Assembly (NCBI GenBank): GCA_045592905.1
Contig: JAZNVR010000001.1
Location: forward strand, 16,219 to 80,218
From: Candidatus Enterousia sp.
Lineage (GTDB): Bacteria; Pseudomonadota; Alphaproteobacteria; Rs-D84
Length of the DNA stretch: 64,000 nt
Direction: 5' to 3'
The translations under genes were made by a program, and so were the position numbers. This document shows, one piece after another, positions 22,158-57,404 of the stretch (position 1 is the first letter of the stretch; each line of letters starts with the position of its first letter). The notes beneath the pieces are model-generated. The model ran no database searches. It saw only the letters and a program-made list of their open reading frames with translations, and was not told the origin of the DNA.

Positions 22158-23891
22158 TTACAATGGCATCTTAATTGCATTTTGCATCATTTGAACAAAT
22201 TCAGACAGTGGAACTGTTTCCTGATTTTGCTGACCCAAACGACGCAGAGTAACCGTTTTATCTGCCATTTCTTTTTCACCGACAACTGCAACGATTGGTG
22301 TTTTTGCCAATGACAATTCACGAATTTTATAGTTTACCTTTTCATCACGCAAATCTGCACGTGTATTTACACCAACGCTGCGTAACGCAGACACAACTTC
22401 GTTTGCATAATCTGCATACTTTTCAGAAATTGGCGTGACAACAACAGGTTCTGGTGACAACCACAATGGTAAATGTCCACCTGTTGATTCTAACAATATT
22501 CCCATAAATCGTTCAATAGACCCCAATATCGCACGATGCAACATAATTGGACGATGTTTTTCGCCATCTTCACCGACATAACTTAAATCAAATCGTTCTG
22601 GCAAATTCATATCCAACTGTACCGTACCGCATACCCATACACGACCAATTGCATCACGCATTGAAATACCAATCTTTGGTCCATAGAATGCACCTTCGCC
22701 TTCTGCAACAGTGTAATTTGCATTTACAGATTTTAACGCATTATGTAATGTACTTTCTGCGAAGTCCCAAACCTCGTCAGAACCAATACGGAATTCAGAA
22801 TCCGGTCTTGTTTCCAACGTCATATGCAATTCATTAAAGCCCAGTGCGCTATAAACACTTTTTATCAGATTTAATGCCTTGGCAACTTCCTCTTCCATCT
22901 GTTCTTCGGTACAGAAAATATGAGCATCATCTTGCGTCATTTCACGCACACGCATCAACCCCGCCAACGAACCAGACGATTCATAACGATGAACCTTGCC
23001 AAATTCTGCCAGATACATTGGCAAATCTTTATATGATGTAATACCATGACCGAACACCAACATACCGCCCGGGCATGACATTGGCTTTACACAGAAATCT
23101 TTACCATCTTGTGTTTTACCCGCATAGTTATGCGATGCATATTTTGCCCAGTGACCACTGCGTTCCCACAATGCACGTTCCATAACAGTTGGTGTTGATA
23201 TTTCTAAATACCCTTCTCTATTCTGACGTTCACGTATAAAGTCAATCAATTTACGATATACTTTAAACCCTTTGTTATGCCAGAAAACAGAACCTGGTGC
23301 ATAATCTGGTTCAAAATGGAACAAGTCCATGTCACGACCCAGTTTTCTGTTATCACGTGCTGCGGCTTCTTCTTGCATTTTCAAGAACGCATCCAATTCT
23401 TCTTTGCTTGCAAATGCGTCAACATAAATACGTTGCAGCATTTTATTTTTTGCATTCCCCTTCCAGTATGCACCTGCAACACTGCGGATTTTGAATGCAT
23501 CCCTTGGTAAATCTTTGGAACTTTCCACATGTGGACCACGACACAAGTCAACAAAATCACGGAAAGTATAGATTGATAAATCTTTACCTGCGGCATCATA
23601 TTCGTTTAACCATTCCATTTTATATGGCTGAGATGCAAAAATTTCCTTGGCTTCATCCAAACTAACATTTCTTTGTTCAAAGCGACCATTAGACTTAATC
23701 AAATCACGCATTTCCTTTTCAATTTTTGCAAAATCTTCTTCGGAAAAACGATATTCCGTATCAAAGTCATAATAGAAACCATTTTCAATTGCCGGCCCCC
23801 CTGCGAATTTAACATCAGGGTGCAATTTTTTAACCGCTGCCGCCATAACGTGTGCCAACGAATGACGAATTATTTCAATATCATAAGACAT
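22158..23891 (-). CDS. thrS: threonine--tRNA ligase (lacks N-terminal TGS domain)
   Basis: N2 editing domain HSLAHVMA begins at residue 9. Class II catalytic core and anticodon-binding domain present. 577 aa. Confidence 0.9.
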   Translation of the reverse strand: MSYDIEIIRHSLAHVMAAAVKKLHPDVKFAGGPAIENGFYYDFDTEYRFSEEDFAKIEKEMRDLIKSNGRFEQRNVSLDEAKEIFASQPYKMEWLNEYDAAGKDLSIYTFRDFVDLCRGPHVESSKDLPRDAFKIRSVAGAYWKGNAKNKMLQRIYVDAFASKEELDAFLKMQEEAAARDNRKLGRDMDLFHFEPDYAPGSVFWHNKGFKVYRKLIDFIRERQNREGYLEISTPTVMERALWERSGHWAKYASHNYAGKTQDGKDFCVKPMSCPGGMLVFGHGITSYKDLPMYLAEFGKVHRYESSGSLAGLMRVREMTQDDAHIFCTEEQMEEEVAKALNLIKSVYSALGFNELHMTLETRPDSEFRIGSDEVWDFAESTLHNALKSVNANYTVAEGEGAFYGPKIGISMRDAIGRVWVCGTVQLDMNLPERFDLSYVGEDGEKHRPIMLHRAILGSIERFMGILLESTGGHLPLWLSPEPVVVTPISEKYADYANEVVSALRSVGVNTRADLRDEKVNYKIRELSLAKTPIVAVVGEKEMADKTVTLRRLGQQNQETVPLSEFVQMMQNAIKMPL

Positions 23892-24168
23892 AATAAAATA
23901 CCTTTACTTTTATTTAATTTTTTAAACTGATTTATTATAGAAATTTGTGCGGTTCACCGCAATAGAAATTACACCCCCAAAGGGGTTGTAGTTGTTGTAG
24001 TAAAGATAAATCTAAACAAATTCATGATTTATATACTATTACCACAAAATACAAAAGTCAACAAAAACCCGCCATACGGCGGATTTCTTGTTATTTATCT
24101 AATTTGTATAAATTTTAAACCAATCAATTTTAGAAATTTCTATATTTAGCCGTTTTTTGAAAAAAATC

Positions 24169-24196
24169 TTGACAAACGCAAATATTGTCTTATGAT
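24169..24196 (+). promoter_or_regulatory. sigma70-like promoter (TTGACA-N16-TATGAT)
   Basis: Near-consensus boxes. The annotated ATG at 24192 lies inside the -10 box, so translation probably starts at 24231. Confidence 0.5.
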
Positions 24197-24230
24197 ACAA
24201 ACACAAAATCTAAATAAAAAGGATTCCAAA

Positions 24231-24746
24231 ATGAATATACCAACAGATTGGTCTAAGATATCAGATGAAGAAGCATTAAAATATATCGCTTACTTAGATA
24301 AACACAGCTATAAATACAAAATAACTATGGACGAAAACAATATTATACACATTGGCAATGTCGCCAACATAGCGTATACATATAATAAAGCAATGGAATG
24401 TTCTGCAGTAAAAATAAATAATAAACATTTCTTTGCAGAATTTGATTGTCTATGCCCGTTTGATAAAGCATATGATTTATATCGCAAAATGCAACATAAG
24501 TTGCTGCCATTTAAAACCAAAGCAAAAGAATGGTGGGAAAATTATTATGATAAAGTATTGATTGCAACAATGTTGACATGTGCTATGGGGGGTATTTTAG
24601 TAAGCACAAAAATACTAAGCGATAATAACAAACGCAGCAAAGAACAATTTAAACAAGAAATCATAAATGAGGCACTGGAACGATTTAAACAAGAACAACA
24701 AAAAAATAATTCAACTATTCAATACCCTATACAGAAATCTAAATAA
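24231..24746 (+). CDS. hypothetical protein with C-terminal TM helix
   Basis: RBS AAAAAGGA precedes the ATG at 24231. Confidence 0.35.
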   Translation: MNIPTDWSKISDEEALKYIAYLDKHSYKYKITMDENNIIHIGNVANIAYTYNKAMECSAVKINNKHFFAEFDCLCPFDKAYDLYRKMQHKLLPFKTKAKEWWENYYDKVLIATMLTCAMGGILVSTKILSDNNKRSKEQFKQEIINEALERFKQEQQKNNSTIQYPIQKSK

Positions 24747-24792
24747 ATATTGACGCTATCATAAAACCAACAAATTCCCCATCCCACAGGGA

Positions 24793-24830
24793 GGGGATTT
24801 TATTTATCCAAAATACAGCGAAACAAAAAC
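24793..24830. repeat. left direct repeat flanking the DUF559 cassette (diverged copy of the hemolysin-III 3' end)
   Basis: GGGGATTTTATTTATCCAAAATACAGCGAAACAAAAAC matches 25276-25312. Its reverse complement encodes ...FLFRCILDK*. Confidence 0.7.
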
Positions 24831-24866
24831 ACACCGTAAAATTCCCCTCCTTGGGAGGGGTGGTGG

Positions 24867-25235
24867 CTATGCCACCAGGGAGGGTTTAAGTTTCTCAATA
24901 TTAAACTGTATCCACTCTAACACCCGTGGCATATCTTGTTTTACATCTTTATCTTCTATTCTCAATACGGTTATACCAATTGAACGCATATATTCATCAC
25001 GACCAACATCATACTCATATTTATCATCATGCGAAGAACCGTCAACCTCAACAACTAGTTTTAATTCCTTGCAATAAAAATCAGCAATATAATTCCCTAT
25101 TGGTTTTTGTTTAGTAAATTTTACCCCCAATGCAGAACGTTTTAATTCGTTCCACAATAACACTTCTGACAAAACACCCGCATGACGATTCATACGGGCA
25201 AAAACATTTAATTTTTTGTCATAAAGTTCAACCAT
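24867..25235 (-). CDS. DUF559 (Vsr/REase-like) endonuclease-domain protein
   Basis: 122 aa with a DUF559-like profile (…IADFYC…LVVEVDG…H…). Flanked by GC-rich palindromes. Confidence 0.6.
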   Translation of the reverse strand: MVELYDKKLNVFARMNRHAGVLSEVLLWNELKRSALGVKFTKQKPIGNYIADFYCKELKLVVEVDGSSHDDKYEYDVGRDEYMRSIGITVLRIEDKDVKQDMPRVLEWIQFNIEKLKPSLVA

Positions 25236-25275
25236 TAAATAACCCTCCCCGCCCTGCGGGCACCCCTCCGACGGT

Positions 25276-25312
25276 GGGGAATTTATTTATCTAAAATACA
25301 CCCGAACAAAAC
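25276..25312. repeat. right direct repeat (true 3' end of the hemolysin-III gene)
   Basis: GGGGAATTTATTTATCTAAAATACACCCGAACAAAAC. Its reverse complement encodes the genuine C-terminus ...VLFGCILDK*. Confidence 0.7.
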
Positions 25313-26053
25313 GGCAAAGAAAAAGCACACACTGCCACCAATTACGAACAGGTGCCAAATGCCATGTGAAAACTTCATACGACGCCATAAATAGAATGTT
25401 ACACCAATCGTATATGACAATCCACCCGCCAGAATAAACCATAAACCACGAATTGGAATATTACGAATCATGGCCGGCAATATAAACAATAATGTCCAAC
25501 CCATTGCAACATATAATGCAACCATCCAACGTGGCTGTTGTTTTGGATTTTTAATTTTCATATAAGAACCAAACAATACAATTCCCCATAAAATTGCAAA
25601 TACAACCCACCCAATAATTCCACGCAAATTCACCAACAAAAATGGCGTATATGTCCCTGCAATCAACGCATAAATCGCAACACTGTCCCATACTTCAAAG
25701 AAACACTCGTGCTTTTTACCAATTGTCGCATGACACATTGTTGAACCAAAATACAATGTTATCATTGTCACACCAAAAATCGCACATGACACAATTGCCC
25801 ATGGATCACCTTTTAAACTAGCAAACACAACTAATAATGTTAAAGCAGCAACCGCAAGCCCAATCCCAACACCATGCGTTAAAATATTAACAATTTCTTC
25901 TGCATGAGTAGATGGTTTTTCCCAACGAAACAACCCGGTTGCACGCAAAACCTTTAACAATTTTGATGCATGACTATCTTTCTTTACAGCCCTAATTCTG
26001 GCCCGTTTTTCCTTGGTCATTTTATCTTCCCCCCCTTTATATTTTAAAATCAA
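25283..26053 (-). CDS. hemolysin III / PAQR family channel protein
   Basis: Seven-TM hemolysin III profile. Confidence 0.7.
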   Translation of the reverse strand: MILKYKGGEDKMTKEKRARIRAVKKDSHASKLLKVLRATGLFRWEKPSTHAEEIVNILTHGVGIGLAVAALTLLVVFASLKGDPWAIVSCAIFGVTMITLYFGSTMCHATIGKKHECFFEVWDSVAIYALIAGTYTPFLLVNLRGIIGWVVFAILWGIVLFGSYMKIKNPKQQPRWMVALYVAMGWTLLFILPAMIRNIPIRGLWFILAGGLSYTIGVTFYLWRRMKFSHGIWHLFVIGGSVCFFFAVLFGCILDK

Positions 26054-26714
26054 CTAACTTTATCGGTTTTATATCTTTTTCATCAAATTCACCACGAGCA
26101 TTTGGTATTTTTCCAATATATTTTGGTTCCCCCATCATATCAATCAATGCCAAACGTTGTGATTCATAATGTCCAGAACCAAAAATTGCGAATACGGTAT
26201 CATACTTATTTAATGCTGTTGCAATATTTTCTAGCATAAATTTATCACGACCAAACTTATTTAACGTGCCACCCATTTCACCAAACTCTCCGGATGAACG
26301 CATCGGGGCTGTTCTTAAAATTTTACGTACAACACTTTCATCAAAAACATAATTTGGATAATGTGCCTGTAATACATCTTGCTTTTCTTTATGCGACAAA
26401 TCAGCAAACACAACAGGTATATTTTGTTTTGATGCCACAGCTGCTGCATAAATCAGCGTATTTGTTTGTGAATCATGCTTACCTACTTCACGACCTGCAT
26501 TTTCAAATTCCGTAATTAAAATATCCGGCTGCTTAAACTTTCCAGACTTAAAACAAAAATCTACCATATCAAACGATTCGTTTTCACCATGCCAGTCACA
26601 CATATACACCAGTGTTTTGCCATTTTTTTCAAACAATGCGACATACGCACCAGGATACATACGTTGTGCATCTTCCCATGCTTCTAACAAATCAAAATTT
26701 GGTTTAAATTGCAT
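26037..26714 (-). CDS. TraB/GumN family protein (putative)
   Basis: GRDKFMLENIA and FGSGHYESQ resemble TraB/GumN motifs. Confidence 0.35.
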   Translation of the reverse strand: MQFKPNFDLLEAWEDAQRMYPGAYVALFEKNGKTLVYMCDWHGENESFDMVDFCFKSGKFKQPDILITEFENAGREVGKHDSQTNTLIYAAAVASKQNIPVVFADLSHKEKQDVLQAHYPNYVFDESVVRKILRTAPMRSSGEFGEMGGTLNKFGRDKFMLENIATALNKYDTVFAIFGSGHYESQRLALIDMMGEPKYIGKIPNARGEFDEKDIKPIKLVDFKI

Positions 26715-56051: not shown

Positions 56052-57329
56052 ATGTTGGATATAAAATTTATTCGTGAAAATCCAGATGCTGTAAAACAAG
56101 CATGTAAATTAAAAGGCTATACAGATTATACCGACCAAATATTGGAATTGGATGCACGCGTTCGTGAACTAAGAACAATTACACAAAGCAAAACTGCTGA
56201 AAAAAACAAAATCACACGTGAAATTCCAACTGCCACAGACAAGGGGCCACTAATTGCAAAATCCAAAGAAATTAATGCAGAAATTGCAAACGACATGGCA
56301 GAATTGGCCGAACGTGAAACACAACTGGATGAACTGTTGCGTTGCGTGCCACAAATTCCATCCAGCGATACGCCATTTGGTCATGACGACACAGACAATG
56401 TTGAAGTTCGTCGTGTTGGCACCCCGCGTGAATTTGACTTTACACCACGTCCACAATGGGAATTGTTGGAAATGAATAATTGGTACAGACCTGAAAAAAT
56501 CGCATCAATTTGTGGCACACGCACATATGCCCTGTTTGGCGAAGCAGCAGAACTGGAACTGGCGATTCAAACATATGTAATTCAGAAATTAATTGCCAAA
56601 GGATTTACATTTGTAAACTGTCCTGCGATAACAAAACCACAAACAATATTTAATGCAGGTCACTTCAAGGGAACAGATACATCTGTTATGGCGGGTGATG
56701 TATTTATGCTGACAGATACAGACAGATGTCTGGCTGGAACTGCAGAAATTATTCTAAATTCATTGCACAGTGACGAAGTATTAAATGAAAAAGATTTGCC
56801 AATTAAATACGCTGGATTTTCACCATGTTTCCGCAAAGAAGCCGGTGCTGCTGGTCGTGACACACGTGGTATTGTACGTATACATCAATTTAACAAGGTT
56901 GAACAGTACATCTATTGCACACCAGCGCAATCTGATGAAATGCACGAACATTTATTAAATAACCTGTGCGAAATTATGGAAGATTTGGAATTACCATATC
57001 GTGTTATCATGGCATGCACAGGTGACATGGGATTCAACAAGGTAAAAATGCACGATGTAGAAGCCTGGTTCCCAAGTGAAAACACATATCGTGAACTTGG
57101 GTCTTGTTCATCTATTGGTCAATTCCAAGCCCGCAGAACAAACACACGTTTTCGTGCATCGGATGGCAGTATGCAATTCTGTGCAACATTGAACAACACT
57201 GGTATTGCCCTGCCACGTGCGATTGTACCTGTTATTGAAAACCACCAAAACCCAGACGGTTCTGTAAATATACCACGTGCATTACAGCCACTGATGGGTG
57301 GACGCACAAAAATCGGGGGAAAACATTAG
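56052..57329 (+). CDS. serS: serine--tRNA ligase
   Basis: N-terminal coiled coil and class II motifs. 425 aa. Confidence 0.9.
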   Translation: MLDIKFIRENPDAVKQACKLKGYTDYTDQILELDARVRELRTITQSKTAEKNKITREIPTATDKGPLIAKSKEINAEIANDMAELAERETQLDELLRCVPQIPSSDTPFGHDDTDNVEVRRVGTPREFDFTPRPQWELLEMNNWYRPEKIASICGTRTYALFGEAAELELAIQTYVIQKLIAKGFTFVNCPAITKPQTIFNAGHFKGTDTSVMAGDVFMLTDTDRCLAGTAEIILNSLHSDEVLNEKDLPIKYAGFSPCFRKEAGAAGRDTRGIVRIHQFNKVEQYIYCTPAQSDEMHEHLLNNLCEIMEDLELPYRVIMACTGDMGFNKVKMHDVEAWFPSENTYRELGSCSSIGQFQARRTNTRFRASDGSMQFCATLNNTGIALPRAIVPVIENHQNPDGSVNIPRALQPLMGGRTKIGGKH

Positions 57330-57404
57330 TAAGTATAAGCGATTACTACATGTGGTGAATGTCGGAAATATTAATTATTCATTCACTATCCACTAATACT
57401 AGTC

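What the first reader, a model, noticed from the sequence alone, without database searches (positions are those of the whole stretch)
24770..25320. DUF559 endonuclease cassette inserted at the 3' end of the hemolysin-III gene, with about 38-bp flanking direct repeats and GC-rich palindromes
The 122-aa DUF559 (Vsr-fold) gene is bracketed by direct repeats at 24793-24830 and 25276-25312. The right repeat encodes the real hemolysin-III C-terminus ...VLFGCILDK*. The left repeat is a diverged copy that still encodes ...FLFRCILDK*. This means the insertion duplicated the last ten codons of the target gene. Between the repeats and the DUF559 ORF lie strikingly GC-rich nested palindromes (CCCCTCCTTGGGAGGGG, GGTGGCTATGCCACC, GCCCTGCGGGC, CCCCTCCGACGGTGGGG) in an otherwise AT-rich genome. 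Together this looks like a small mobile or homing-type cassette rather than a native gene.
Basis: seen in the sequence. Interest (0 to 1): 0.7.

Follow-up and report, generated by a model that had tools for sequence, protein, structure and literature searches.

The report
Tiny hairpin-ended DUF559 nuclease mobile element
The small DUF559 gene behind the hemolysin-III gene is a 444-bp selfish mobile element with conserved two-hairpin inverted ends, and it belongs to a widespread family, with gene-less miniature copies, that I could not find described.

Summary
A 122-aa DUF559 (Vsr-fold) gene lies between two copies of the hlyIII 3' end. The four GC-rich palindromes occur nowhere else in the 64 kb.

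The palindromes are two 45-nt inverted end modules: AATT-CCCCTCC-nnn-GGAGGGG-TG-[hairpin 2]-GGGGAGGGTT. They bound a 444-bp element at 24840-25283.

- **Mobility.** The closest relative (L001) has an empty site with a single hlyIII end. More distant Candidatus Enterousia species carry a cassette 93-97% identical in nucleotides, next to hlyIII that is only 85% identical.
- **Other sites.** The same element sits after tRNA-Ser(GCU), after yebC and after a small gene. It always lies 0-4 nt behind the upstream gene and points the same way.
- **Wider family.** The module occurs on at least 120 metagenome contigs (GC 0.32-0.67) and 18 viral contigs. It flanks DUF559 genes only 42-55% identical to this one. 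[quoted passage not shown]
- **Independent test.** A covariance model built only from metagenome copies hits both window ends (E 1e-13 and 1e-10).

The gene is under purifying selection (dN/dS 0.06-0.2). That its own nuclease drives mobility is inferred, not shown. The long hlyIII duplication is specific to this site.

The parts
25283..26053 (-). hlyIII (hemolysin-III family) host gene. Its stop codon TAA (25285-25283) shares its last A with the AATT terminus of the element.
   Evidence: ORF. Pfam PF03006 E = 6.9e-35. 72 orthologous loci in Candidatus Enterousia and related alphaproteobacterial MAGs at 80-93% aa identity.
25283..25336 (-). Proximal, functional copy of the duplicated hlyIII 3' end. 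The core is the 29 nt at 25283-25311, encoding ...FGCILDK*. Weaker homology to the distal copy runs on to about 25336.
   Evidence: Direct repeat. Alignment with L084, where the duplication is 45 nt and nearly identical.
24840..25283 (-). The mobile element proper, 444 bp from AATT to AATT: left end module, DUF559 gene, right end module.
   Evidence: Absent from the empty site L001. Boundaries come from the end modules and from the loss of conservation 1-2 nt outside AATT in 160 copies. Elements in relatives are 441-449 bp.
25241..25285 (-). Left (gene-proximal) end module: AATT-CCCCACC-GTC-GGAGGGG-TG-CCCGC-AGG-GCGGG-GAGGGTT. Its GGGGAGGG serves as the Shine-Dalgarno sequence 7 nt before the DUF559 ATG. 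Hairpin 1 carries one mismatched pair in this copy.
   Evidence: Covariance model R1, built only from metagenome copies: 41.8 bits, E = 1e-10. Inverted repeat I1. Aligned with other elements.
24867..25235 (-). DUF559 / Vsr-fold nuclease gene, 122 aa. Its last codons (PSLVA*) and stop codon lie inside the right end module. No promoter of its own was found.
   Evidence: Pfam PF04480 E = 8.3e-28. PDB 3hrl E = 1.7e-17. Predicted structure pLDDT 84, matching 3hrl, I-Bth0305I (3r3p, E = 3e-5) and Vsr. Invariant E63, D65, H69 and nearly invariant D70. dN/dS 0.06-0.21. Promoter scan at chance level.
24838..24886 (+). Right end module in inverted orientation: AATT-CCCCTCC-TTG-GGAGGGG-TG-GTGGC-TAT-GCCAC-CAGGGAGGGTT. 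On the gene strand, the hairpin followed by AATTTT also looks like a terminator.
   Evidence: Model R1: 50.8 bits, E = 1.2e-13. DNA fold -14.5 kcal/mol, z = -4.2. Sub-threshold Rfam hit to whalefall-1, 17.6 bits against a gathering score of 37.
24800..24836 (-). Distal, displaced pseudo-copy of the hlyIII 3' end. The core 24800-24828 reads FLFRCILDK*. GGTGTG at 24830-24835 matches hlyIII further upstream, which implies a 13-15-nt internal deletion.
   Evidence: In L003 this copy ends with the ILDL* end type of genomes whose neighbour is the small Cys-rich gene, while the proximal copy has the window-type ILDK* end.
24777..24796 (.). Native bidirectional terminator hairpin shared by the convergent genes nb184 (my label for the unannotated 184-aa ORF at 24192-24746) and hlyIII: CCCCATCCC-ACA-GGGAGGGG, flanked by AAATT and ATTTT. 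It resembles hairpin 1 of the module and could be an old solo remnant.
   Evidence: Present right after the hlyIII stop codon in the empty site L001. Terminator-like on both strands. DNA fold z = -3.2. Not recognised by model R1 at E <= 10.
24192..24746 (+). nb184, the convergent neighbour gene, with no family assignment. It is itself a variable insert, absent from most hlyIII loci.

Best explanation
Window 24840-25283 is an autonomous, selfish mini-element of 444 bp. Its only gene encodes a 122-aa Vsr-fold (DUF559, EDxHD-like) nuclease. It is bounded by two 45-nt inverted end modules: AATT, then a 7-bp CCCCTCC/GGAGGGG hairpin, then TG, then a second hairpin whose structure is conserved but whose sequence is free, then GGGG(A/T)GG(G)TT.

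In Candidatus Enterousia the element has no promoter. It sits 0-4 nt behind the end of a host gene (here the hlyIII stop codon), in the same orientation. It would be transcribed by read-through and translated from the Shine-Dalgarno sequence inside its left module. The GC hairpin plus T-run of its right module supplies a terminator.

**Shown.** It is an insertion, because the closest relative has an empty site. It has moved between species at this same site. It occupies at least four different sites. Its protein is under purifying selection. The same end modules flank distant DUF559 genes and form gene-less MITE-like pairs in many unrelated genomes.

**Inferred.** The nuclease recognises the module, or module-like terminator hairpins at gene ends, probably as extruded or single-stranded DNA. 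It cuts at the AATT boundary. The break is then repaired by copying an occupied allele (homing-like), or it captures an excised element.

The duplicated hlyIII end is a one-off scar of the kind called 'long target duplication'. It now travels with the element. It provides the right-hand homology arm that lets the cassette recombine into any hlyIII allele whatever lies downstream.
For: **Insertion and spread**
- Empty site in the closest relative L001: gltX 97-100% identical and flanks 85-100%, with a single hlyIII end.
- A second occupied/empty pair, L084 versus L061, with hlyIII 88-99% identical.
- Cassette nucleotide identity against adjacent hlyIII: 97.0 vs 84.6 (window-L003), 93.2 vs 85.9 (window-L013), 95.6 vs 84.6 (L003-L013).
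- The high-identity tract starts at the hlyIII stop codon and ends inside the distal repeat in L003, which has a different downstream neighbour.
- Other sites: after tRNA-Ser(GCU) (L073-L083), after yebC (L091) and after a 116-aa gene (L089), always co-oriented and 0-4 nt from the upstream gene's end.
- An element identical in L078 and L079 has unrelated DNA on its right.

**End modules**
- Terminal inverted modules are seen in every element examined.
- Model R1, built without any window or Enterousia sequence, hits both window ends at E = 1e-13 and 1e-10 and nothing else in 64 kb.
- There are 161 metagenome copies on at least 120 contigs with GC 0.32-0.67. Of these, 146 carry the full module, although only hairpin 1 and AATT were searched for.
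- Hairpin 2 covaries: 85 double-change cells against 37 +/- 4 in shuffles, 0 of 500 shuffles reaching the observed value.

**Link to DUF559**
- 16 of 120 loci hold a DUF559 gene 36-55% identical to the family. Eight or nine of these, all 42-55% identical, are flanked by inward-facing modules.
- DUF559 is the only recurrent cargo between module pairs.
- Gene-less inward-facing pairs measure 115-180 bp, and neighbouring elements lie end to end 9-47 nt apart.
- Modules abut ORF ends three times more often than random positions do, with a spike at the stop codon.

**Protein**
- dN/dS is 0.06-0.21.
- E63, D65 and H69 are invariant, and D70 is conserved in at least 90% of sequences.
- The predicted fold matches the homing endonuclease I-Bth0305I and Vsr.
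- No promoter lies in the 47 nt between hlyIII and the ATG.
Against: - No nuclease activity, target or intermediate has been observed. The link between the protein and the movement is correlative.
- The protein has only 122 aa and lacks the separate DNA-binding region of I-Bth0305I.
- No fixed target-site duplication exists, so classical cut-and-paste transposition is not indicated.
- Both copies of the hlyIII end survive in occupied alleles. A nuclease that recognised that sequence would still find it.
- L035 shows a 135-bp duplication of the same hlyIII end around unrelated cargo. Duplications at this locus therefore do not need DUF559.
- L089 has extra right-end modules, one behind an HSDR_N_2 gene. 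Modules can therefore accompany other genes.
- Modules are rare in Enterousia. There is one element in this 64 kb, and in about 720 kb of other hlyIII loci there are none apart from the elements and one remnant.
Confidence: 0.6

Rival explanations
1. The element is non-autonomous. The two-hairpin modules are the mobile part and are moved in trans by an unlinked enzyme, as REP doublets (REPINs) are moved by REP-associated tyrosine transposases (RAYTs), or MITEs by transposases. DUF559 is only a frequent passenger, for example a repair, defence or addiction gene.
For: Most module copies have no DUF559 gene nearby (104 of 120 loci). Gene-less pairs are common. In L089 a right-end module follows an HSDR_N_2 gene. 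The 122-aa protein is small for a recombinase.
Against: DUF559 is the only recurrent gene between inward-facing modules. The association holds down to 42-55% protein identity in genomes of very different GC content. No transposase or integrase gene lies near any of the Enterousia elements. Contigs are short, so the absence of DUF559 near a module says little about the rest of the genome.
Confidence: 0.2
2. There is no dedicated machinery. The cassette spreads only by ordinary homologous or illegitimate recombination after DNA uptake, within a hypervariable locus. The modules are expression signals (5' structure with Shine-Dalgarno sequence, 3' terminator) that simply travel with the gene. The hlyIII duplication would come from Campbell-type integration of a circularised fragment.
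For: The region downstream of hlyIII differs in nearly every species. L035 has a near-identical 135-bp hlyIII-end duplication around unrelated cargo. The window-L013 high-identity tract also covers nb184. The left module supplies the Shine-Dalgarno sequence and the right module a terminator-like hairpin.
Against: This does not explain the same element at four unrelated sites, each exactly at a gene end. It does not explain inverted symmetry of the ends, gene-less module pairs, end-to-end clustering, or near-invariant module sequence across GC 0.32-0.67 while the protein diverges to 42%.
Confidence: 0.12
3. It is a native, vertically inherited Vsr-like mismatch-repair gene that has been lost from most relatives.
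For: DUF559 proteins include the Vsr-like repair protein proposed in Caulobacter (PMC12907096). The gene is under purifying selection.
Against: The cassette is 97% identical where flanks are 85% identical. The closest relative has a clean empty site. The element occupies different genomic positions in different species. No cytosine methyltransferase gene lies among the six ORFs flanking it; the rest of the window was not screened. It has terminal inverted modules.
Confidence: 0.03

Closest known systems
EDxHD (Vsr-like) homing endonucleases, e.g. I-Bth0305I (PMC3239194, PMC3384342)
   Same: The nuclease fold is the same: the predicted structure matches 3r3p at E = 3e-5. It has an E-x-D-G-x-x-H-D motif. 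The gene is selfish, shows presence/absence polymorphism at one site, and spreads horizontally into the homologous site of other genomes. That family is reported in introns, in inteins and as free-standing genes.
   Different: It is not in an intron or intein. It is only 122 aa, with no separate DNA-binding region. It carries conserved terminal inverted repeats and has gene-less derivatives, which homing endonuclease genes do not. It occupies several unrelated sites. Cleavage of the empty site is untested.
'Insertion with long target duplication' and transposon-like restriction-modification units flanked by long inverted repeats (Furuta et al. 2010, PMC2853133)
   Same: A nuclease-related gene without a transposase or integrase is inserted with a direct duplication of tens of bp that is single-copy at the empty site. 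[quoted passage not shown]
   Different: Here there is a solitary nuclease with no methyltransferase. The inverted ends are a conserved structured module shared across phyla, not repeats unique to one unit. The long duplication is seen at only one or two sites.
REP / REPIN elements with their RAYT transposases (PMC2817692, PMC3116915)
   Same: GC-rich palindromes flank a small gene in inverted orientation. Gene-less doublets are scattered in intergenic regions next to gene ends. Hairpin structure matters.
   Different: The associated protein is a Vsr-fold nuclease, not a Y1 (HUH) transposase. Copy number in Enterousia is very low. The module sequence is conserved across phyla rather than being genome-specific.
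Bacterial insertion sequences and MITEs with terminal inverted repeats
   Same: It has terminal inverted repeats, multiple insertion sites, autonomous copies (about 440-500 bp) and gene-less copies (115-180 bp), and clustering.
   Different: There is no DDE, serine, tyrosine or HUH transposase and no fixed-length target-site duplication. At 444 bp it is smaller than any insertion sequence I know of (own knowledge).
Rfam whalefall-1 RNA motif, RF01762 (Weinberg et al. 2010, PMC2864571)
   Same: The architecture is the same: a 7-bp C/T-rich hairpin, 2 nt, a second hairpin, then a G-rich tail AGGGUGAGGAC. Sub-threshold hits fall exactly on the element's right end and on the ends of relatives.
   Different: The score is below the gathering threshold (17.6-23.1 against 37). 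That motif was proposed as a noncoding RNA of unknown function, found only in whale-fall metagenomes. The inverted arrangement seen here argues for a function at the DNA level.
Integron gene cassettes
   Same: Both are small, promoterless, single-gene units with a hairpin-forming imperfect palindrome at the end, expressed from an upstream host promoter. Gene-plus-module units lie in series in L089.
   Different: There is no integrase or attI site nearby. Hairpin modules occur at both ends. The cassette encodes its own nuclease.

Membership tests
DUF559 / Vsr-fold PD-(D/E)XK nucleases (Pfam PF04480) | Match to the family profile above the curated threshold | tested here: met
   96.9 bits against a cut-off of 20.6, E = 8.3e-28, covering 106 of 109 profile positions. 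PDB 3hrl E = 1.7e-17, or 2.5e-23 with a profile.
DUF559 / Vsr-fold PD-(D/E)XK nucleases (Pfam PF04480) | Vsr-like fold | tested here: met
   AlphaFold model, pLDDT 84.4. Foldseek: 3hrl TM 0.90, 3r3p (I-Bth0305I) E = 3e-5, 1vsr E = 0.018.
DUF559 / Vsr-fold PD-(D/E)XK nucleases (Pfam PF04480) | Conserved acidic and histidine active-site residues | tested here: met
   E63, D65 and H69 (also D52, D76, D95, D97) are invariant in 30 homologues at 61-88% identity, and D70 is conserved in at least 90%. Mapping onto the catalytic residues of Vsr is by analogy, not by superposition.
DUF559 / Vsr-fold PD-(D/E)XK nucleases (Pfam PF04480) | Nuclease activity | not testable with these tools
   Needs biochemistry.
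Homing endonuclease gene (free-standing, EDxHD type) | Presence/absence polymorphism at one site among close relatives, and higher identity of the gene than of its flanks | tested here: met
   Empty sites L001 and L061. 97% against 85% identity.
Homing endonuclease gene (free-standing, EDxHD type) | The enzyme cleaves the empty allele at or near the insertion point, and insertion destroys the site | not testable with these tools
   No assay is available. Both copies of the hlyIII end persist in occupied alleles, so this sequence alone is unlikely to be the site.
Homing endonuclease gene (free-standing, EDxHD type) | One long specific target, hence a single genomic site | tested here: not met
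   At least four unrelated sites in Enterousia and many contexts in metagenomes.
Transposon or insertion sequence with terminal inverted repeats, plus MITEs | Terminal inverted repeats that bound the unit | tested here: met
   45-50-nt inverted modules in every element.
Transposon or insertion sequence with terminal inverted repeats, plus MITEs | Gene-less derivatives with the same ends | tested here: met
   Eight inward-facing pairs of 115-180 bp.
Transposon or insertion sequence with terminal inverted repeats, plus MITEs | Short target-site duplication of fixed length | tested here: not met
   None in 13 metagenome elements. Repeats occur only at the hlyIII site (23-45 nt) and at one tRNA-Ser copy (12 nt).
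Transposon or insertion sequence with terminal inverted repeats, plus MITEs | A transposase of a known class | tested here: not met
   The only ORF is DUF559.
Insertion with long target duplication (restriction-modification gene mobility, PMC2853133) | Direct repeats longer than 30 bp flank the insert and are single-copy at the empty site, with no mobility gene | tested here: met
   52 nt at 77% in the window. 45 nt with one mismatch in L084. Single copy in L001 and L061.
Insertion with long target duplication (restriction-modification gene mobility, PMC2853133) | The insert holds both restriction and modification genes | tested here: not met
   Only one 122-aa nuclease gene is present.
REP / RAYT (REPIN) systems | Y1/HUH transposase flanked by REP palindromes | tested here: not met
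   The protein is DUF559, and no Y1 transposase family matched.
Rfam whalefall-1 (RF01762) | Score at or above the gathering threshold (37 bits) | tested here: not met
   17.6 bits in the window, 23.1 in L169 and 21.6 in L100. Only the architecture is shared.
Integron gene cassette | attC site recombined by an adjacent integron integrase at attI | not tested
   No integrase-like ORF appears among the genes around the element or in the annotated neighbours of related loci. No integrase profile was searched.

The most novel reading that the evidence does not exclude
DUF559 proteins with the two-hairpin AATT-CCCCTCC...GGGGTGGTT modules form a new class of autonomous bacterial mini-transposons that spans phyla, about 440-500 bp long and with 115-180-bp MITEs. 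Their 'transposase' would be a Vsr-fold nuclease acting on hairpin-forming ends and inserting precisely at the 3' ends of genes and at terminators, without a target-site duplication. This would give a function to part of one of the largest bacterial families of unknown function. It would also reinterpret the orphan whalefall-1 'RNA' motif as a transposon end.
Probability: 0.35. Interest if true: 0.9.

Novelty: new variant of a known kind. Interest (0 to 1): 0.75.

Why it matters
DUF559 is a very large family of small bacterial 'endonuclease domain-containing' proteins with no settled function (own knowledge). Here one of them is the sole gene of a compact element with clear boundaries and conserved structured inverted ends. 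It has matched empty sites, shows horizontal spread between species, and has gene-less miniature derivatives in unrelated genomes and in viral contigs.

If the nuclease drives the movement, this would be a type of mobile DNA built on a Vsr-like nuclease rather than a transposase. It would also be one of the smallest autonomous elements known. It lands at gene ends and brings its own terminator.

The finding gives a testable origin for an orphan Rfam motif (whalefall-1). It adds a concrete example of 'insertion with long target duplication'. The conserved module is also a practical marker for annotating these elements and for explaining contig breaks in metagenome assemblies.

Tried and rejected
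- **Rfam.** No family reaches its threshold on the locus or on ten related loci. Only whalefall-1 appears, below threshold. The many microRNA hits are hairpin noise.
- **PADLOC.** Only weak partial hits (DpdF, a methyl-directed restriction enzyme), so no defence system is assigned.
- **NCBIfam.** Only PRK09767 (the E. coli YcjD type), far below its cut-off.
- **Literature.** Searches for DUF559, for Vsr-like together with inverted repeats, for the module sequence itself, and for restriction-like nucleases with MITEs found no description of such an element.
- **Plasmids.** The module consensus hit a single record. Protein relatives on plasmids are below 60% identical and unannotated beyond 'DUF559'.
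- **E. coli ycjD.** It lies right behind sapF, but model R1 finds no module there and Rfam finds nothing. The visual resemblance of a nearby CCCCTCTGGGGAGAGGGTTAGGGTGAGGGG motif remains only a lead.
- **Second Vsr-like motif.** A weak tblastn hit at 57260-57346 lies in seryl-tRNA synthetase and is spurious.
- **Integrative element.** I considered a tyrosine-recombinase or XerCD-type element, because of the duplicated 3' ends at hlyIII and tRNA-Ser. I rejected it: no recombinase gene is present, and the 7-3-7 hairpin does not resemble a dif-like site (own knowledge).
- **IS200/IS605-type element.** Rejected, because those ends are not inverted and the enzyme class differs.
- **Fixed target-site duplication.** Searched for and not found.
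Full report
**1. The observation**

The window is AT-rich (GC about 0.35). It comes from an alphaproteobacterium of the Candidatus Enterousia group: 72 hlyIII loci at 80-93% protein identity are all from such gut MAGs.

At the stated place lie these genes:
- a hemolysin-III gene, 25283..26053 (-), PF03006 E = 6.9e-35;
- a 122-aa DUF559 gene, 24867..25235 (-), PF04480 E = 8.3e-28;
- a convergent 184-aa ORF of unknown family, 24192..24746 (+), which I call nb184.

The direct repeat is real: 24790-24841 versus 25273-25324, 52 nt at 77%. The right copy encodes the true C-terminus ...FGCILDK*. The left copy reads FLFRCILDK*.

The four palindromes exist. The CCCCTCC...GGAGGGG type occurs only at this locus in 64 kb, against 0.18 matches expected. 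Only 8 perfect GC-rich hairpins exist in the whole window.

**2. It is an insertion, and the repeat is a duplicated target**

Among the 72 hlyIII loci, a DUF559 gene follows hlyIII only in L003 (97% aa) and L013 (93%).

L001 has the same three neighbours (the 225-aa gene, hlyIII and nb184) but no DUF559. There, a single hlyIII end is followed directly by a GC hairpin and then by the end of nb184. L001 is also the closest relative: gltX is 97-100% identical and the flanks are 85-100% identical.

A second pair shows the same thing. L084-L088 carry the cassette (88% aa), while L061, whose hlyIII is 88-99% identical, is empty. In L084 the duplicated hlyIII end is 45 nt long with one mismatch. The window's distal copy is the same segment with an internal deletion of 13-15 nt. 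The original duplication was therefore about 45-55 nt.

**3. It has moved between species**

| Pair | DUF559 nt identity | Adjacent hlyIII nt identity (723 nt) |
|---|---|---|
| window - L003 | 97.0% | 84.6% |
| window - L013 | 93.2% | 85.9% |
| L003 - L013 | 95.6% | 84.6% |

The residue-level alignments show where identity changes. Mismatch density is about 15% through hlyIII. It drops to about 1-3% from the stop codon through the cassette and the distal pseudo-end. In L003 homology then stops, because L003 has a different downstream gene.

In L003 the proximal hlyIII end is of the window type (GATAAATAA, ILDK*). The distal one keeps GGATTTGTAA (ILDL*) plus the leader of the small Cys-rich gene, which is the native end of genomes with that neighbour. 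Both crossovers therefore lie within the repeated end of about 24 nt. The cassette travels with its own copy of the hlyIII end.

**4. The same cassette sits at other sites**

Relatives 78-83% identical in protein occupy three further sites:
- 3-4 nt after the CCA end of tRNA-Ser(GCU), upstream of cysS (L073-L083);
- directly after the yebC stop codon (L091);
- after a 116-aa gene that follows hlyIII (L089).

In every case the cassette is co-oriented with the upstream gene and begins 0-4 nt after it. L078 and L079 carry an identical element with unrelated DNA to its right. In L079 the element is followed by a 12-nt repeat of the tRNA end and by the decayed left end of an older element.

**5. 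The palindromes are terminal inverted end modules**

I aligned left ends with reverse-complemented right ends. In Enterousia this gives:
- left end: AATT-CCCCTCC-nnn-GGAGGGG-TG-[CCCGCAGGGCG]-GGGAGGGTT;
- reverse complement of the right end: AATT-CCCCTCC-nnn-GGAGGGG-TG-[GTGGCTATGCCAC]-CGGGGAGGGTT.

The apparent Shine-Dalgarno sequence (GGGGAGGG) belongs to the left module. Its mirror image encodes the C-terminal PSP(V/L)A of the protein, and the stop codon lies in the loop of hairpin 2. The element is 444 bp in the window (24840-25283) and 441-449 bp in relatives.

A more distant group of 115-aa proteins (63-67% identical) has a perfect 50-nt inverted repeat of the same design, plus a promoter-like sequence of its own.

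**6. The module is widespread and tied to DUF559**

Only hairpin 1 and AATT were specified. Even so, 146 of 161 copies continue with TG, a second hairpin and GGGGTGGT(T/C). Of the 126 hairpin-2 segments of 8 nt or longer, 124 fold, and there are 93 different sequences.

On a 60-sequence alignment, hairpin 2 shows 85 double-change cells against 37 +/- 4 in shuffles (0 of 500 reach the observed value). All slid controls score lower.

The loops of hairpin 2 are mostly GNA triloops closed by C-G (GCGAAGC type). To my knowledge these are exceptionally stable as DNA mini-hairpins. Loops of hairpin 1 are pyrimidine-rich on the same strand. This points to a strand-specific, probably single-stranded-DNA role. 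Conservation stops 1-2 nt outside AATT.

A covariance model built only from these metagenome copies (R1) gave these results:
- It hits the window at 24838-24886 (+, 50.8 bits, E = 1.2e-13) and at 25241-25285 (-, 41.8 bits, E = 1e-10), and nothing else in 64 kb.
- In about 720 kb of other Enterousia hlyIII loci it hits only the elements, one remnant in L030 and extra right ends in L089.

Sixteen of the 120 metagenome loci contain a DUF559 gene 36-55% identical to this family. Eight or nine of them, all 42-55% identical, are flanked by inward-facing modules. DUF559 is the only recurrent cargo between such pairs. Inward-facing pairs of 115-180 bp without any gene look like MITEs. Outward-facing neighbours 9-47 nt apart show that elements cluster end to end.

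Modules abut the end of a co-directional ORF in 27% of cases, against 9% for random positions. In 9 cases the stop codon overlaps AATT.

Eighteen IMG/VR viral contigs also carry full modules, and in one the module directly precedes a DUF559 gene.

**7. The protein**

It is under purifying selection, with dN/dS 0.06-0.21 over seven elements. E63, D65 and H69 are invariant and D70 is nearly invariant, forming an E-x-D-G-x-x-H-D motif.

It matches the N. gonorrhoeae endonuclease-like protein 3hrl at E = 1.7e-17. The predicted structure (pLDDT 84.4) is closest to 3hrl, then to the catalytic domain of the homing endonuclease I-Bth0305I (E = 3e-5), and more distantly to PvuRts1I/AbaSI, Vsr and the R2 endonuclease.

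The literature groups DUF559 with Vsr and the EDxHD homing endonucleases (PMC3424549, PMC3384342). The window holds only this one copy.

**8. How it most likely works**

*Shown:*
- it is an insertion with matched empty sites;
- it has spread between species at one site;
- it occupies several sites, each at a gene end;
- it has conserved inverted structured ends;
- gene-less derivatives exist;
- the nuclease gene is under selection;
- no promoter was found between hlyIII and its ATG.

*Inferred:*
- the gene is expressed by read-through from hlyIII, using the Shine-Dalgarno sequence of the left module;
- the right module terminates transcription (hairpin followed by AATTTT);
- the nuclease recognises the module or module-like terminator hairpins and cuts at the AATT boundary;
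- repair then copies an occupied allele, or captures an excised copy.

This would explain the position at gene ends, the clustering next to older modules, the solo hairpins and the absence of a fixed target duplication. One such solo hairpin is L028, with TTCCCCTCCCGTGGAGGGGAATTT right after the hlyIII stop codon.

The hlyIII duplication is best seen as a one-off 'long target duplication', as described for restriction-modification genes (PMC2853133). It now acts as a portable right-hand homology arm.

L035 shows that this locus can duplicate the same hlyIII end (135 bp, near-identical) around unrelated cargo. The duplication step may therefore be a general recombination outcome, such as Campbell-type integration of a circle, and not the work of the nuclease.

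**9. Rivals**

- A non-autonomous passenger moved in trans (0.2).
- Pure homologous exchange within a hypervariable locus, with the modules acting only as expression signals (0.12).
- A native repair gene lost from most relatives (0.03).

The main weakness of my preferred model is that no activity or intermediate has been observed. The protein is also very small.

**10. Comparison with known systems, and novelty**

- It works like a free-standing homing endonuclease gene in that it spreads at one site. It fails that family's single-target criterion, and it has inverted ends and MITEs.
- It looks like a transposon with terminal inverted repeats. It has no known transposase and no target-site duplication.
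- It resembles REP/RAYT systems in layout, but not in enzyme class.
- Its ends share the architecture of the orphan whalefall-1 motif but score below threshold.

I found no description of such elements. I therefore file it as a new variant of known kinds (selfish nuclease gene, transposon-like nuclease unit). I put the chance at about 0.35 that it represents a truly new class of nuclease-driven mini-transposon.

Noticed in passing
window 23969-24025 (-), upstream of thrS (22158-23891): An 18-codon leader ORF, MNLFRFIFTTTTTTPLGV*, has six consecutive Thr codons and is followed by a CCCC...GGGG hairpin. This looks like a threonine attenuator for threonyl-tRNA synthetase. It is conserved downstream of the variable region in many related loci.
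   Followed up: partly
L035 6600-7351: A near-identical duplication of about 135 bp of the hlyIII 3' end flanks a different insert: a roughly 90-aa 'MSYVYKKN...' Cys-rich gene plus a 'cattgcgag...ggcaatcc' palindromic repeat. The same locus design holds other cargo.
   Followed up: partly
L001-L072, first 110 nt after the hlyIII stop codon: The region downstream of hlyIII differs in nearly every Enterousia species. It holds plain terminators, nb184, or one to two tandem small Cys-rich 'MPYEY...C..DGC...CKHSK' genes of unknown function. The 225-aa gene upstream (window 26037-26714) is also variably present.
   Followed up: partly
L031, L035, L043, L051, L052 downstream of hlyIII; also L100 and L244: A second repeat family of the type 'tgtcattgcgag...cgtggcaatcc' (long imperfect palindromes) recurs in these genomes, sometimes next to the DUF559 modules.
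   Followed up: no
L225 (E. coli K-12 NC_000913.3, 1351040-1351830): E. coli ycjD (DUF559) lies 67 nt behind sapF in the same orientation. It is followed by a decayed duplicate of its own last 55 nt or so, and by a CCCCTCTGGGGAGAGGGTTAGGGTGAGGGG motif that resembles the short form of the module. Model R1 does not score it.
   Followed up: partly
L089 2896-2948 and 3792-3840: Extra right-end modules occur here. One directly follows a 252-aa HSDR_N_2 gene (a domain of the type I restriction R subunit) downstream of the DUF559 element, giving gene-plus-module units in series.
   Followed up: no
L090, L093, L094, L086 (contig ends): Several metagenome contigs break within a few to about 200 nt after the DUF559 element. 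This is what assembly does at repeated or polymorphic sequence.
   Followed up: no
L101 about 1850-2060; L129 1549-1812; L119 1229-1305; L215: Module pieces form tandem arrays, for example a unit of about 43 nt repeated four times in L101 and three to four head-to-tail modules in L129.
   Followed up: no
L226-L244 (IMG/VR viral contigs): Full modules occur on 18 predicted viral contigs, and in L242 one directly precedes a DUF559 gene. Phages or prophages may carry these elements between hosts.
   Followed up: partly
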